NCBI RefSeq assembly: GCF_056746865.1
Contig: NZ_CM163382.1
DNA length: 64,000 nucleotides
Reading direction: 5' to 3' (one strand)
Position 1 is the first letter of the stretch; each line of letters opens with the position of its first letter. Made by a program: the position numbers and the translations under genes. The notes under the pieces were generated by a model. It worked only from the letters and a program-made list of their open reading frames with translations. It was not told the DNA's origin and ran no database searches. Positions 27,894 through 31,786 of this stretch are shown one piece after another.

Positions 27894-28158
27894 ACATAAC
27901 CCTCAAGTGAAAATGGCTTTTTTATGTTGTGTATTGTGTTGTGTGTTTGCAGGCTCTTTCATGCAGGTCTTATGCCATCTTTACGACAACAGTAACATTC
28001 AACGTTAAATATGTTAACAAGACGTTGCATTATTGTCCTAAAGTTGAAGATAGCAGGTATAGCGGTTGAATCGCAGCGTTTCGATTGAATGGCAGAAACA
28101 AAATGTCGAGGATTTGATCGCGGTTGCAAAATTGCCCTGAAACAGGGCAACAATGAGG
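27894..28158 (-). promoter_or_regulatory. argT promoter region
   Basis: 265-bp intergenic region 5' of argT; argT is nitrogen-regulated in enterics, but I could not confidently place a sigma54 -24/-12 element. Confidence 0.4.
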
Positions 28159-28728
28159 TTATGCGCCCTGCCAGCGGGCAAAGAGATCTTCAGGAAGCGT
28201 TATGGCGAATTGATCGAGTACACGGTTAACCGTCTGATTTATCACATCATCAAGGGATTGCGGGCGATGATAAAACGCCGGAACGGGAGGCATAATCACC
28301 GCACCGATTTCTGCTGCCTGCGTCATTAAACGCAGATGGCCTAAGTGCAATGGTGTTTCACGTACGCAGAGCACCAACGGGCGACGCTCTTTCAGCACAA
28401 CATCTGCCGCACGGGTCAGTAAGCCATCAGTATAGCTATGGACAATGCCGGACAGGGTTTTGATTGAACAGGGTAAAATCACCATCCCCAGTGTCTGGAA
28501 AGAACCGGAAGAAATGCTGGCAGCAATATCGCGCGCATCGTGCGTCACATCGGCTAATGCCTGCACTTCGCGCAGGGAAAAATCCGTTTCGAGGGATAAG
28601 GTCTGGCGCGCGGCCTGGCTCATCACCAGATGCGTTTCAACATCTGCGACATCGCGCAGAACCTGTAATAAGCGCACGCCATAAATCGCGCCGCTGGCAC
28701 CGCTGATGCCTACAATGAGTCGTTTCAT
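28159..28728 (-). CDS. ubiX: Flavin prenyltransferase UbiX
   Basis: 189-aa ORF MKRLIVGISGASGAIYGVRLLQVLRD..., flavoprotein fold. Confidence 0.95.
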   Translation of the reverse strand: MKRLIVGISGASGAIYGVRLLQVLRDVADVETHLVMSQAARQTLSLETDFSLREVQALADVTHDARDIAASISSGSFQTLGMVILPCSIKTLSGIVHSYTDGLLTRAADVVLKERRPLVLCVRETPLHLGHLRLMTQAAEIGAVIMPPVPAFYHRPQSLDDVINQTVNRVLDQFAITLPEDLFARWQGA

Positions 28729-28822
28729 AAATAGTTGCCCTGTCAGACTTGCAGGCAGACTTTGCAGGATTTCAGCAGGAGTTGCAAGTCAGGGTGCCAG
28801 ACCGGCACCCTGAGCGAAGGCA

Positions 28823-30340
28823 TCATCCTTCGTTATGCATTTCGAGATTTTCCACTTCGTTCTGACGTTGCACGGCTTTGGCGTCATCATTACGTAAAGT
28901 ATCAAGGAAATCGAGGTAGCCCTGATCAACATCTTTGGTGACGTAGACGCCGTTGAACACCGAGCATTCAAACTGCTGGATATCCGGGTTTTCAGCGCGA
29001 ACGGCTTCGATCAGATCGTTCAGATCCTGGAAAATCAACCCGTCAGCACCGATGATCTGGCGAATTTCATCTACTTCGCGACCGTGAGCGATCAGTTCCG
29101 TGGCGCTCGGCATATCAATACCATAAACGTTCGGGAAGCGAATTTCCGGTGCCGCAGAAGCGAGATACACTTTCTTCGCTCCGGCTTCGCGTGCCATCTC
29201 GATAATCTGCTCAGAAGTGGTGCCACGGACGATGGAGTCGTCGACCAGCAGGACGTTTTTATCGCGGAACTCGGCGCGGTTGGCGTTCAGTTTACGGCGC
29301 ACGGACTTACGACGCAGCTGCTGACCCGGCATGATGAAGGTACGGCCTACATAGCGGTTTTTAACGAAGCCCTGACGGTACGGTTTGCCCAGAATACGCG
29401 CGATTTCCAGCGCGATATCACAAGAGGTTTCCGGGATCGGGATCACCACGTCGATATCCAGATCTTCCCATTCGCGGGCAATTTTCTCGCCCAGTTTCGT
29501 GCCCATATTCACGCGGGCGCTGTAAACGGAAATTTTGTCGATGAACGAGTCCGGGCGAGCAAAGTATACATACTCAAACAGGCACGGATTGCTGACCGGA
29601 TTGTCAGCACATTGACGGGTAAACAACTGCCCTTCTTCAGTGATGTAAATCGCTTCGCCCGGCGCGACGTCACGCAGGAAATCAAAGCCCAGCGTATCGA
29701 GCGCAACGCTTTCGGAAGCGACCATATATTCTGTGCGGTTCTCGTCAATATCACGTTTTCCCAGTACGAGCGGACGAATCCCGTTTGGATCGCGGAAAGC
29801 AACCATACCATGGCCGATAATCATCGCCACGCAGGCATACGCGCCGCGGATTAAGCGGTTTGTGGCAGCAATGGCAGCGAAAATATTGTCGGCTTCCAGC
29901 GGGTAGTGGCGGAAATTGTCCAGTTCGCTGGCAAAGATATTAAGCAGAATTTCCGAGTCGGAAGTGGTGTTGATGTGGCGGCGTTTTTCTTCAAACAGTT
30001 TTTTACGCAACTCGTGAGCGTTGGTCAGATTGCCGTTGTGGGCAAGCGTAATGCCATACGGGGAGTTAACGTAAAACGGCTGCGCTTCAGAGGCGCTGGA
30101 GCTGCCAGCCGTAGGGTAACGCACATGACCAATGCCCATATTGCCCTGCAAACGCTGCATATGGCGAGCTTCAAATACATCGCTCACCAGCCCGTTCGCT
30201 TTACGCAAACGGAAGCAGTTATTGGCATCTATGGTGATGATGCCGGCGGCATCCTGACCGCGATGCTGAAGCACCGTTAAGGCATCATAAATCGACTGGT
30301 TAACCGGCATAACACCGGCGATACCGACAATACCGCACAT
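28823..30340 (-). CDS. purF: Amidophosphoribosyltransferase
   Basis: 505-aa ORF beginning MCGIVGIAG (N-terminal nucleophile Cys) with a PRTase domain. Confidence 0.97.
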
Positions 30341-30376
30341 ACGTCTTTTTCCTCGTTAAGCCACATCTCAGAGCAC

Positions 30377-30865
30377 TTACGCTCTGGGCAAGAAACTTGA
30401 CGAGCTTTGCAGATAATCAAAAAACCATCTGATGATAAAACTGAACTGCGGGATCAGCTGTGATTTGCTCCAGTCTTCGCTTTTCGACACCCCGGTAAAG
30501 GAGTCGAGAAAGAAGAGAATGGCGGCAACAATCAACACACCGCGCAACGCACCGAAACAGACGCCCAGCACCCGATCGGTGCCTGACAACCCCGTTTTCT
30601 CCACCAACTGGCCTATCACGAAGTTCACGATAGCACCAACGATCAGGGTAGCGATAAACAGTACCGCGATGGCAATCCCATTTCGAACCAGTTCGTCTTC
30701 AAAGCCCGTAAACCAGACTGACAGGTAAGTGTAGTAATGACTGGCAACAAAGAAAGCACAACCCCATGTCACCAGCGATAACGCTTCACGAACAAAGCCG
30801 CGGATCAGGCTAACCAGAGAGGAAAAAGCAATCACCGCGATTATGGCGTAATCAATCCAGACCAT
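30377..30865 (-). CDS. cvpA: Colicin V production membrane protein
   Basis: 162-aa hydrophobic ORF MVWIDYAIIAVIAFSSLVSLIRGF... Confidence 0.93.
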   Translation of the reverse strand: MVWIDYAIIAVIAFSSLVSLIRGFVREALSLVTWGCAFFVASHYYTYLSVWFTGFEDELVRNGIAIAVLFIATLIVGAIVNFVIGQLVEKTGLSGTDRVLGVCFGALRGVLIVAAILFFLDSFTGVSKSEDWSKSQLIPQFSFIIRWFFDYLQSSSSFLPRA

Positions 30866-30921
30866 ATGTGTCCCACGATTTTACGCCCTGTCATCCTGTT
30901 CGGGGCGCATTCTAACAGAAA

Positions 30922-30937
30922 AAGAAAACGTTTGCGT
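30922..30937 (-). promoter_or_regulatory. PurR operator (PUR box) upstream of cvpA-purF
   Basis: Minus-strand sequence ACGCAAACGTTTTCTT matches the PurR box consensus; located 57 nt 5' of cvpA. Confidence 0.7.
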
Positions 30938-30959
30938 AGGGATTTCCTTCCCACGCATC

Positions 30960-30994
30960 AATAAAAATGGCGCTGAAAAAATATTCAACGCCAT
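30960..30994 (-). terminator. Intrinsic terminator downstream of dedD
   Basis: Minus-strand hairpin atggcgttgaatattttttcagcgccat followed by tttttat. Confidence 0.6.
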
Positions 30995-31012
30995 CGACTT
31001 TTTATGCCTTTG

Positions 31013-31112
31013 CGGCATCGGACAATGCGTGTCGGATGCGGCGTGAACGCCTTATTCGACCTACGGTTCTACCCCTGCGCAGGCCTGATAAGACGCGCCA
31101 GCGTCGCATCAG
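31013..31112. repeat. REP/BIME cluster (3' of dedD)
   Basis: Tandem REP units: gtcggatgcggcgtgaacgccttattcgacctac ... aggcctgataagacgcgccagcgtcgcatcaggc. Confidence 0.8.
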
Positions 31113-31123
31113 GCAAGACCGTA

Positions 31124-31786
31124 TTAATTCGGCGTATAGCCCATTACCACGCCACTTAAGCCAGAAAGTTGCTTCAACTCACCCAGCGAACCTTTCAGCT
31201 TATCTTTCGAGGCATCTGGCCCAACCAGAATACGGGTAATTTTACCCTGCACTGGCGTGGATGGCGACGTATAAACCCGATAACCGGCACCGCGCAGCTT
31301 ACCGACAATCTCATTCACTTTATCGGCATTTTTCAGCGCGCCCAGTTGCACAACATAGGCTTTACCCGTTGGCGCTGCTTTTTCTTCCACGACCGGCTTC
31401 GGTTCTGGCTTCGGCGCAGGTGGTGCTTCAACCTTTGGCTTAAGCGGCTCCACCGGTTTCCGCTTCGGTGGGGCGACCGGTGCAGGTTCCGGTTCAAACT
31501 CGGTGTTATTGGCTGCAATAGTGGCCGGATCGAGCGACGGTGCTGCGGCATCACCTGCCCGTACCTCTTCCGCTGCGCCTTCCGGCGGCTGCGTCGGCAA
31601 CGCCTGGGTGGCGGCTGGCATCATATCAGGCTCATCGCGATCGCCCGCTTTTGGCACCAGCGGGATAGCCGCAAACTCATCCTGATAATGTTTTTTCTGC
31701 CCGTCCAGCAGCCCTGGAAGTACAATCACCCCCAGCGCCACCAGCACGATCGTGCCCACTAACCGATTCTGAAACTTACTTGCCAC
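31124..31786 (-). CDS. dedD: Cell-division protein DedD (SPOR domain)
   Basis: ORF ...ASKFQNRLVGTIVLVALGVIVLPG..., one TM helix, Pro/Lys-rich linker and C-terminal SPOR-like domain; I chose the GTG start at 31786 (220 aa) as I recall it; the longest ORF starts at ATG 31804. Confidence 0.85.
   Translation of the reverse strand: MASKFQNRLVGTIVLVALGVIVLPGLLDGQKKHYQDEFAAIPLVPKAGDRDEPDMMPAATQALPTQPPEGAAEEVRAGDAAAPSLDPATIAANNTEFEPEPAPVAPPKRKPVEPLKPKVEAPPAPKPEPKPVVEEKAAPTGKAYVVQLGALKNADKVNEIVGKLRGAGYRVYTSPSTPVQGKITRILVGPDASKDKLKGSLGELKQLSGLSGVVMGYTPN

What the first reader, a model, noticed from the sequence alone, without database searches (positions are those of the whole stretch)
28729..28822. 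Inverted and direct repeats in the 94-bp purF-ubiX spacer
The spacer contains gacttgcagg / gactttgcagg direct repeats, their inverted partner (cctgcaagtc / ttgcaagtcag), and a GC-rich hairpin gggtgccagaccggcaccc without a U-tract. This could be an RNase processing or mRNA-stability element separating purF from ubiX expression within the cvpA-purF-ubiX operon, or a protein-binding site.
Basis: seen in the sequence. Interest (0 to 1): 0.2.

Follow-up and report, generated by a model that had tools for sequence, protein, structure and literature searches.

The report
purF end hairpin plus ubiX promoter
The 94-base gap between the E. coli genes purF and ubiX holds a hairpin where most purF messages end, followed directly by a weak promoter for ubiX, so the textbook three-gene operon largely behaves as two units; this is an ordinary kind of gene junction.

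Summary
The window is E. coli. cvpA, purF and ubiX lie on the minus strand and the spacer is 28729-28822.

The 10-bp GC-rich hairpin (28789-28813) is not chance (p about 0.001). Published 3'-end maps of K-12 put the dominant end of cvpA-purF RNA 2-4 nt after it. A stable hairpin sits at this position in all 72 Enterobacteriaceae spacers examined, with many unrelated stem sequences. Klebsiella has a true U-tract terminator there.

Directly downstream is a 36-bp block with no indels in 80 species. It reads TTGCAA, 17 bp, CAAAGT. A published start-site map enriched for triphosphate 5' ends places a weak start exactly 7 nt after it (28752). The block stays with ubiX in 7 of the 9 species where other genes were inserted between purF and ubiX.

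The direct and inverted repeats are real in Escherichia, but they are only the -35 region, the -10/discriminator and the first transcribed bases. They are not conserved as repeats.

Verdict: a 3'-end hairpin followed by an internal sigma-70 promoter, a known kind of junction. How the 3' end forms (Rho plus trimming, or direct termination) is unresolved. Interest is low.

The parts
28823..28825 (-). purF stop codon (TGA)
   Evidence: ORF 28823-30340. Sequence read. Annotation.
28789..28813 (-). purF 3'-UTR hairpin, UCAGGGUGCC-GGUCU-GGCACCCUGA: 10 bp, 5-nt loop, no U-tract. In K-12 the second base is G, which leaves an 8-bp core.
   Evidence: I1. dG -20.2 kcal/mol in the window and -16.4 in K-12. 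Chance p about 0.001. z = -4.2. A hairpin is present at this position in 72/72 spacers, with at least 15 unrelated stem sequences (my reading of the list).
28785..28787 (-). Mapped RNA 3' ends of cvpA-purF transcripts in K-12: Term-seq 2428685 = window 28787; SMRT-Cappable-seq TTS 2428683 = window 28785.
   Evidence: PMC7815308 Supplementary file 1. PMC6131387 Supplementary Data 1. Coordinate offset K-12 = window + 2399898.
28782..28787 (-). -35 hexamer TTGCAA of the ubiX promoter
   Evidence: T, T, G, C are 99-100% conserved across 74 distinct sequences. It lies exactly 17 bp from the -10 in all of them.
28765..28781 (-). 17-bp promoter spacer. It contains an unexplained conserved A-A-T-C-C (28767-28771; T28769 is 99% conserved). 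This reads TAAAAT/TATAAT in many genera, CGAAAT in K-12 and TGAAAT here.
   Evidence: The two window-versus-K-12 differences in the promoter (28777, 28774) fall in this spacer.
28759..28764 (-). -10 hexamer CAAAGT (C-12, A-11, A-9, G-8, T-7 are 96-100% conserved)
   Evidence: Variants seen are CAAAGT, CACAGT, CATTGT, CTAAGT and CAGAGT, which always keep T-7 and nearly always A-11.
28752..28752 (-). ubiX transcription start (G), giving a 24-nt leader
   Evidence: PMC3415461 Supplementary table: TSS at NC_000913.2 2426672 (-), 8 reads, 5' UTR 24 nt, assigned to ubiX. Terminator-exonuclease-treated RNA, two replicates. I predicted this position from the conserved hexamers before looking it up (note).
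28756..28768 (-). Direct repeat copy 1, CCTGCAAAGTCTG (the end of the promoter spacer, the -10 hexamer and the start of the discriminator)
28744..28755 (-). Direct repeat copy 2, CCTGCAAGTCTG (positions -3 to +9 around the start site)
   Evidence: Conserved as a repeat only in Escherichia and partly in Citrobacter sedlakii/amalonaticus.
28783..28790 (-). Inverted-repeat arm GACTTGCA (overlaps the -35). Its partner TGCAAGTC is at 28746-28753 (around +1 to +7).
   Evidence: I5. p about 0.023. Escherichia-specific.
28738..28741 (-). Shine-Dalgarno-like AGGG, 9 nt before the ATG
   Evidence: GG is at least 90% conserved.
28726..28728 (-). ubiX start codon

Best explanation
The spacer is a compact junction between two transcription units.

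(1) Hairpin. In cvpA-purF mRNA the GC-rich hairpin 28789-28813 forms just after the purF stop codon and defines the dominant, stable 3' end of that RNA, 2-4 nt after the stem. That a 3' end exists there is shown by public data. How it forms is inferred. Either RNA polymerase stops at or shortly after the hairpin, or it stops further downstream and 3' exonucleases trim back to the hairpin.

(2) Promoter. The next 36 bp (28787-28752) are a weak sigma-70-type promoter for ubiX: -35 TTGCAA, 17 bp, -10 CAAAGT, start at G28752. The result is a 24-nt leader carrying an AGGG ribosome-binding site. The start site and the conservation are shown; promoter activity is inferred. ubiX is therefore expressed largely independently of the PurR-controlled cvpA promoter, with a minority of read-through transcripts.

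(3) Repeats. The direct and inverted repeats that drew attention are by-products. They are the -35 region, the -10/discriminator and the initial transcribed bases, which happen to resemble one another in Escherichia.
For: 3' end:
- Term-seq lists a 'primary' purF 3' end at K-12 2428685 (window 28787) at two places in the three-condition table, which I take to be two growth conditions.
- SMRT-Cappable-seq lists a termination site at 2428683 (window 28785) for reads that begin at the cvpA start 2430799 and cover only b2313|b2312.
- In M9, 254 reads end there and 191 pass. In rich medium, 113 end there and 25 pass. Median read-through is only 99-126 nt.

Hairpin conservation:
- All 72 purF-linked spacers fold into a stable hairpin between the stop codon and TTGCAA. 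Median dG is -23.7 kcal/mol and median z is -4.15; 90% have z < -2. The stem sequences are largely unrelated.
- Within Escherichia, changes fall in the loop or make G-U pairs.
- K. michiganensis has a hairpin with a T-tract at this position that passes the terminator scan. By eye, K. grimontii has one too.

Promoter:
- There are no indels in the 36-bp block across 80 species, while both flanks have many.
- The key -35 and -10 positions are 96-100% conserved.
- The TSS at window 28752 is exactly 7 nt after the -10, from triphosphate-enriched RNA in two replicates.
- With 3,746 TSSs genome-wide, the chance of one within 1 nt of a predicted site is about 0.001.
- No TSS is listed between the one at window 28836 and the next, which lies 168 nt upstream of the purF start.
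- In 9 of 80 species other genes sit between purF and ubiX. Seven of them keep the TTGC..-17-CA..GT pattern directly upstream of ubiX. Of the other two, S. arizonae (L081) lacks the block and P. vendiensis (L070) keeps only its 3' part.
Against: - The -10 matches the consensus at only 3 of 6 positions. The consensus promoter scan does not list this site.
- The TSS has only 8 reads, against a dataset mean of 108.
- I found no second TSS dataset. The stored Cappable-seq supplement has no hit here, though it totals only about 270,000 characters and may not hold the full table. SMRT-Cappable-seq lists no start near 2428650.
- The hairpin has no U-tract, so direct intrinsic termination is doubtful.
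- The one bicyclomycin dataset I could search lists no Rho termination region between argT and yfcJ on this strand.
- Read-through of 18-43% shows that the units are not fully insulated.
- Conserved spacer bases (AATCC) are not explained by a plain promoter.
Confidence: 0.7

Rival explanations
1. One tricistronic operon with RNase processing. Transcription runs from the cvpA promoter through ubiX, and an endonuclease cuts in the spacer. The hairpin protects the upstream product, and the 28752 5' end is the downstream cleavage product.
For: There is a 3' end just after a U-less hairpin. There is some read-through. The low read count of the 28752 5' end means residual processed RNA cannot be excluded. 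All the papers retrieved treat the three genes as one operon.
Against: The 5' end survives terminator exonuclease in two replicates. The 3' and 5' ends are 33-35 nt apart, not adjacent. The sequence around 28752 (CCU|GCA) is not A/U-rich as RNase E sites usually are (my own knowledge). The -35/-10 pattern, with its fixed 17-bp spacing and A-11/T-7, is what DNA-level promoter selection predicts. It persists in 7 of the 9 loci where purF is no longer the upstream gene. Reads that pass the hairpin mostly stop within about 100-130 nt rather than covering ubiX.
Confidence: 0.1
2. The conserved block is, in addition, an operator for an unidentified regulator, or a second overlapping promoter that uses the TAAAAT/TATAAT-like motif. 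In that case ubiX transcription is regulated rather than constitutive.
For: Positions that a plain promoter spacer does not need are conserved: A-A-T-C-C at 28767-28771 (T28769 99%), C28781 at 93% and G28765 at 97%. Many genera have a perfect or near-perfect TATAAT/TAAAAT there.
Against: That hexamer lies only 7 bp after TTGCAA, and there is no conserved -35 or TGn for it. Its A-11 equivalent is only 68% conserved and is G in Escherichia. The mapped E. coli start fits CAAAGT, not this hexamer. I recognised no known factor motif, and the ubiD upstream region shares nothing obvious. Tests for sigma-54 and sigma-E spacing fail.
Confidence: 0.12
3. The repeats form a functional RNA structure in read-through transcripts. 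Candidates are the helix GACUUGCA/UGCAAGUC, or GCCYG pairing with the ribosome-binding site. Either would keep ubiX from being translated from purF read-through RNA.
For: The 8-bp inverted repeat is mildly unusual (p 0.023). Most species can pair GCCCU with AGGGC.
Against: There is no covariation support. Observed pairing and covariation equal the shuffled controls (61.9% against 62.9%; score 0.120 against 0.120). RNAalifold finds no consensus structure. The 8-bp helix is Escherichia-specific. Whole-spacer z is only -1.85.
Confidence: 0.05

Closest known systems
Protective 3' stem-loops of Rho-dependent transcripts (Dar and Sorek 2018, PMC6061677)
   Same: An energetically stable stem-loop, no U-rich tail, and a precise steady-state 3' end immediately downstream of the stem. 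Reads that pass the site end diffusely within about 100 nt. The sequence just downstream is moderately C-rich (C/G 1.57 in 36 nt).
   Different: Rho dependence is not shown. The bicyclomycin dataset I could search calls no Rho region here, although coverage was low. The presumed rut region would coincide with a promoter.
Canonical intrinsic (Rho-independent) terminator
   Same: A GC-rich hairpin directly after a stop codon, with a transcript end next to it. K. michiganensis has a true U-tract terminator at the orthologous place that passes the scan. By eye, K. grimontii, Raoultella and Enterobacter pulveris do too.
   Different: There is no U-tract in Escherichia, Citrobacter or Enterobacter. 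The 3' end lies 2-4 nt after the stem, not 7-9 nt into a U run. The terminator scan does not call it.
Internal (intra-operon) sigma-70 promoters
   Same: A -35/-10 pair at 17 bp and a start 7 nt downstream. The promoter lets a distal gene be expressed independently of the operon's regulated promoter.
   Different: The -10 is weak (3/6). The -35 abuts the upstream gene's 3' hairpin, or in Enterobacter and the Citrobacter freundii group overlaps it. There is extra conservation inside the spacer.

Membership tests
Intrinsic terminator | GC-rich stem-loop | tested here: met
   10 bp, dG -20.2 kcal/mol
Intrinsic terminator | U-tract immediately after the stem | tested here: not met
   The tail is CUUGCAACUCC. 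The scan does not call it. The feature is met in K. michiganensis at the same position.
Protective 3' stem-loop of Rho-dependent transcripts | Stable stem-loop not followed by a U-rich sequence | tested here: met
Protective 3' stem-loop of Rho-dependent transcripts | Precise steady-state 3' end immediately downstream of the stem | tested here: met
   Public Term-seq and SMRT-Cappable-seq tables place ends at window 28787 and 28785
Protective 3' stem-loop of Rho-dependent transcripts | Read-through increases when Rho is inhibited | tested here: inconclusive
   No Rho termination region is listed between 2427233 and 2440043 on the minus strand in PMC7815308 Supplementary file 2. Read counts in this purine-repressed locus were only about 40-120 per 800-nt window for the nearby purF and cvpA entries.
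Protective 3' stem-loop of Rho-dependent transcripts | C-rich, G-poor rut region just downstream | tested here: inconclusive
   C/G is 1.57 in the 36-nt block and 1.1-1.4 in 78-nt windows. The median is 1.86 in species with a U-less hairpin and about 1.0-1.1 where a U-tract terminator precedes the block, but this comparison is confounded by phylogeny.
Sigma-70 promoter | -35 and -10 hexamers 16-18 bp apart | tested here: met
   TTGCAA (4/6), 17 bp, CAAAGT (3/6, with A-11 and T-7). The spacing is invariant in 80 species. The site is below the threshold of the consensus scan.
Sigma-70 promoter | Primary (triphosphate) transcript start 6-8 nt after the -10 | tested here: met
   Public TSS table, window 28752, 7 nt after the -10, 8 reads, exonuclease-treated RNA
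Sigma-70 promoter | Drives transcription when isolated | not testable with these tools
   Needs a reporter fusion or in vitro transcription
Sigma-54 promoter | TGGCAC-N5-TTGC (GG and GC 10 nt apart) | tested here: not met
   The window has TGGCAC-N6-TTGCA (28799-28783). The TGGCAC is not conserved outside Escherichia. The RpoN gSELEX table has no peak in this spacer.
REP/BIME or any Rfam RNA family | Match to a family model; multi-copy in the genome | tested here: not met
   No Rfam hit in 28700-28850 even at E<=10. One place per genome in 5,425 E. coli genomes.

The most novel reading that the evidence does not exclude
The 36-nt, indel-free block is dual-coded. As DNA it is the ubiX promoter. 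As RNA in purF read-through transcripts, its C-rich face is the Rho loading site that ends cvpA-purF transcription. This would explain both the conserved non-hexamer positions and the observation that the block is C-rich only in lineages where a U-less hairpin precedes it. A less specific variant is that the conserved AATCC marks an operator for an unknown regulator of prenyl-FMN/ubiquinone synthesis.
Probability: 0.15. Interest if true: 0.4.

Novelty: new member of a known kind. Interest (0 to 1): 0.2.

Why it matters
It corrects a piece of routine annotation. cvpA-purF-ubiX is treated as one PurR-controlled operon in all the papers retrieved here. The evidence says instead that most cvpA-purF transcripts stop at the hairpin and that ubiX, the flavin prenyltransferase needed for ubiquinone synthesis, has its own conserved weak promoter.

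That makes biological sense, because a cofactor-synthesis enzyme should not be shut off when purines are plentiful. It matters for anyone modelling the PurR regulon, engineering this locus, or interpreting polar effects of purF mutations. It opens no new question of principle.

Tried and rejected
- Rfam scan of 27000-31500 at E<=10: nothing in the spacer.
- Consensus promoter/terminator scan: calls neither feature in the window. It does call the Klebsiella terminator, but not those of Raoultella or E. pulveris.
- Global MAFFT + RNAalifold on 57 hairpin segments: fails because the stems are not alignable. A clade-restricted alignment (A3) is out of register between Escherichia and Enterobacter. 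I therefore relied on per-sequence folding against shuffles.
- Helix between the discriminator GCCCU and the ribosome-binding AGGGC: looked attractive in single folds, but has no covariation above controls. Rejected.
- Sigma-54: the spacing is off by one and the motif is not conserved. Sigma-E: GCAACTC...TCTG lies 19 nt apart instead of 16. Sigma-32, the PurR box, FNR, CRP, IHF and the marbox were compared by eye from memory with no fit.
- Shared motif with the ubiD upstream region: none obvious.
- One search used a mis-specified pattern (18-nt gap) and carries no information.
- Searches for more data sets: the Cappable-seq supplement has no hit here. Thomason 2015 is not held. The Dar and Sorek, Conway and ROSE supplements are not held or are uninformative. 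The K. pneumoniae TSS table is not held for this gene.

Full report
**Identity and observation**

The window is E. coli, 100% identical over the queried 351 nt to strain 118UI. The locus is present once in 5,425 of 5,426 complete genomes. On the minus strand lie cvpA (30377-30865), purF (28823-30340) and ubiX (28159-28728), with the same annotation in K-12 and 118UI. The spacer is 28729-28822. K-12 coordinates are window + 2399898.

In mRNA sense the spacer reads UGA|UGCCUUCGC-UCAGGGUGCC-GGUCU-GGCACCCUGA-CUUGCAACUCCUGCUGAAAUCCUGCAAAGUCUGCCUGCAAGUCUGACAGGGCAACUAUUU|AUG.

Against dinucleotide shuffles:
- the 10-bp hairpin has p about 0.001;
- the gapped direct repeat CCTGCAA(A)GTCTG has p about 0.0075;
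- the 8-bp inverted repeat has p about 0.023.

**The hairpin is a transcript end**

Two independent published maps for K-12 place RNA 3' ends just after the stem.

- Term-seq (PMC7815308, Supplementary file 1) lists a 'primary' purF 3' end at 2428685, which is window 28787. It appears at two places in the three-condition table, which I take to be two growth conditions.
- SMRT-Cappable-seq (PMC6131387, Supplementary Data 1) lists a 'novelTTS' at 2428683, which is window 28785. It applies to full-length reads that begin at the cvpA start 2430799 and cover only b2313|b2312.

The long-read counts are as follows.

| Medium | Reads ending at the site | Reads passing it | Share ending there | Median read-through |
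|---|---|---|---|---|
| M9 | 254 | 191 | 57% | 99 nt |
| Rich | 113 | 25 | 82% | 126 nt |

In M9, 68 of the passing reads end within 50 bp. Few transcripts from the cvpA promoter therefore span ubiX.

**The hairpin is conserved as a structure, not as a sequence**

I fetched 80 ubiX loci, one per species, all apparently Enterobacteriaceae going by the record titles (one is mislabelled Chryseobacterium and two are 'Proteobacteria' MAGs).
- In 71 of them purF lies directly upstream, with a spacer of 88-141 nt.
- Together with the window that makes 72 spacers, and each folds into a stable hairpin between the stop codon and a conserved TTGCAA. Median dG is -23.7 kcal/mol, median z is -4.15 against shuffles, and 90% have z < -2.
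- The stems are largely unrelated. Examples are Escherichia CAGGGUGCC, Enterobacter GCAGGUGAGGGCG, the Citrobacter freundii group GCAAGCAAGGGYGC, Kosakonia GCGCCCCUC and Trabulsiella GCGCGUUCUGU.
- This is why a global alignment and RNAalifold fail.
- Within Escherichia, changes fall in the loop or give G-U pairs.
- K. michiganensis has a hairpin with a T-tract here that passes the terminator scan. By eye, K. grimontii, Raoultella and E. pulveris also have hairpins with T-rich tails, although the simple scan misses the last two.

Selection has evidently kept 'something that ends purF RNA' at this spot.

**The repeat-bearing half is a promoter for ubiX**

Downstream of the hairpin, 80 species share a 36-bp block with no indels at all, while both flanks are full of them. 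It reads TTGCAA(C), 17 bp, CA(A/C)AGT.
- The T, T, G and C of the first hexamer are 99-100% conserved.
- C-12, A-11, A-9, G-8 and T-7 of the second hexamer are 96-100% conserved.

From this I predicted a start at 28750-28752 (note). The start-site table of Kim et al. 2012 (PMC3415461) lists a TSS at NC_000913.2 2426672 (-). It is assigned to ubiX and has a 24-nt leader, which places it at window 28752, exactly 7 nt after the -10. The RNA had been treated with terminator exonuclease, and reads had to appear in both replicates.

It is a weak start, with 8 reads against a dataset mean of 108. But with 3,746 starts genome-wide, the chance of one within 1 nt of a predicted site is about 0.001. The table lists no start between the one at window 28836 and the next, which lies 168 nt upstream of the purF start.

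**The promoter block travels with ubiX**

In 9 of the 80 species purF is not within 2.5 kb upstream. Other genes sit there instead:
- a LacI-type regulator, with a ROK-type kinase ORF seen upstream of it in K. oxytoca;
- an amino-acid permease;
- hyp genes.

The five of these loci whose ORFs I listed (L065, L024, L023, L052, L070) all keep ubiX followed by two periplasmic-binding-protein genes that look like argT and hisJ. Seven of the nine retain the TTGC..-17-CA..GT block directly upstream of ubiX.

In K. oxytoca the inserted regulator's stop codon lies inside the block. S. arizonae lacks the block altogether. P. vendiensis (L070) keeps only its 3' part, and the sequence upstream of ATAAT is unrelated. 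The S. arizonae case fits a report that in S. Typhimurium ubiX is the last gene of the sigma-54-dependent STM2360-2356 operon (PMC3844500).

**What the repeats are**

- Direct-repeat copy 1 (28756-28768) is the end of the promoter spacer, the -10 and the start of the discriminator.
- Copy 2 (28744-28755) is positions -3 to +9.
- The inverted pair is the -35 region (28783-28790) against +1 to +7 (28746-28753).

As repeats they exist only in Escherichia, and in part in C. sedlakii and C. amalonaticus. I found no evidence that the repetition itself does anything.

A tempting RNA helix between the discriminator GCCCU and the ribosome-binding AGGGC has no covariation above controls. Paired cells are 61.9% against 62.9% in shuffles, and the covariation score is 0.120 against 0.120.

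**What remains open**

(a) How the 3' end forms. The anatomy fits the class described by Dar and Sorek: a stable stem-loop without U's, a precise end right after it, and rut sites just downstream. The diffuse short read-through suits that model.

The block is C-rich where a U-less hairpin precedes it (median C/G 1.86). It is not C-rich where a U-tract terminator precedes it (about 1.0-1.1) or where purF is absent (1.16). That comparison is confounded by phylogeny. The one bicyclomycin dataset I could search lists no Rho region here, though the locus is poorly expressed in LB. Direct termination at a U-less hairpin is not excluded.

(b) Conserved bases inside the promoter spacer. A-A-T-C-C at 28767-28771 is conserved (T28769 at 99%) and reads TAAAAT or TATAAT in many genera. 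It lies only 7 bp after TTGCAA and has no -35 of its own. This is unexplained.

**Comparison and verdict**

- It is not an intrinsic terminator in this genome (no U-tract).
- It is not a sigma-54 promoter (N6 instead of N5, not conserved, and no gSELEX peak).
- It is not REP and not any Rfam family.
- It works like a protective or terminating 3' hairpin followed by an internal sigma-70 promoter. Both are well-known kinds.

The individual data points already sit in supplementary tables of published surveys. The papers I retrieved still call the locus a single cvpA-purF-ubiX operon. The finding is sound but ordinary, and my interest score is 0.2.

Noticed in passing
L002 (E. coli B27, NZ_AP027424.1) 1601-2030: This E. 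coli genome has purF followed after about 400 nt by argT, with no ubiX annotated. Homology to the spacer runs roughly to the ribosome-binding site and then breaks. That is an apparent loss of a gene needed for ubiquinone synthesis.
   Followed up: partly
L023, L024, L051, L052, L062, L065, L070, L078, L081 (upstream of ubiX): The purF-ubiX junction is an insertion hot spot. Nine of 80 species have other genes upstream of ubiX instead of purF: a LacI-type regulator (with a ROK-type kinase ORF in K. oxytoca), an amino-acid permease, or hyp genes. The insertion point lies upstream of the ubiX promoter block in 7 of them. S. arizonae has lost the block, and L070 keeps only its 3' part. The S. arizonae case matches the published sigma-54 STM2360-2356 (ubiX) operon of S. 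Typhimurium.
   Followed up: partly
window 28767-28773 (minus strand): A-A-T-C-C inside the promoter spacer is conserved (T28769 99%). It reads TATAAT/TAAAAT in Klebsiella, Kosakonia, Enterobacter and Citrobacter, but CGAAAT in K-12 and TGAAAT here. It is too close to TTGCAA (7 bp) to use it as a -35. It could be a second -10 or an operator.
   Followed up: partly
window 28836 (minus strand), inside the last codons of purF: Kim et al. 2012 list a second 5' end, assigned to ubiX, at NC_000913.2 2426756 (10 reads, 108 nt upstream of ubiX). I saw no convincing -10/-35 for it.
   Followed up: no
window 28783-28799 (minus strand): In Escherichia only, the 3' arm of the hairpin plus the -35 spell TGGCAC-N6-TTGCA. 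This looks like a sigma-54 promoter with the spacing off by one. It is not conserved, and there is no RpoN gSELEX peak.
   Followed up: yes
window 31027-31150, and 30966-30995 (minus strand): Sub-threshold naRNA4 (REP-like) matches lie between dedD and cvpA. A terminator-like hairpin with a T-tract lies just upstream of cvpA.
   Followed up: no
K-12 2429970, 2430294, 2430606 (window about 30072, 30396, 30708; minus strand): Term-seq lists ORF-internal 3' ends inside purF and cvpA. The purF-internal one has a Rho score of 1.83 and was not called Rho-dependent.
   Followed up: no
L028, L031, L035, L038 and other Enterobacter/Citrobacter loci, spacer upstream of ubiX: In Enterobacter, Leclercia, Lelliottia and the Citrobacter freundii group, the 3' arm of the purF hairpin (...CACTTGC) includes the first four bases of the ubiX -35 hexamer. 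The transcript-end element and the promoter therefore physically overlap.
   Followed up: partly
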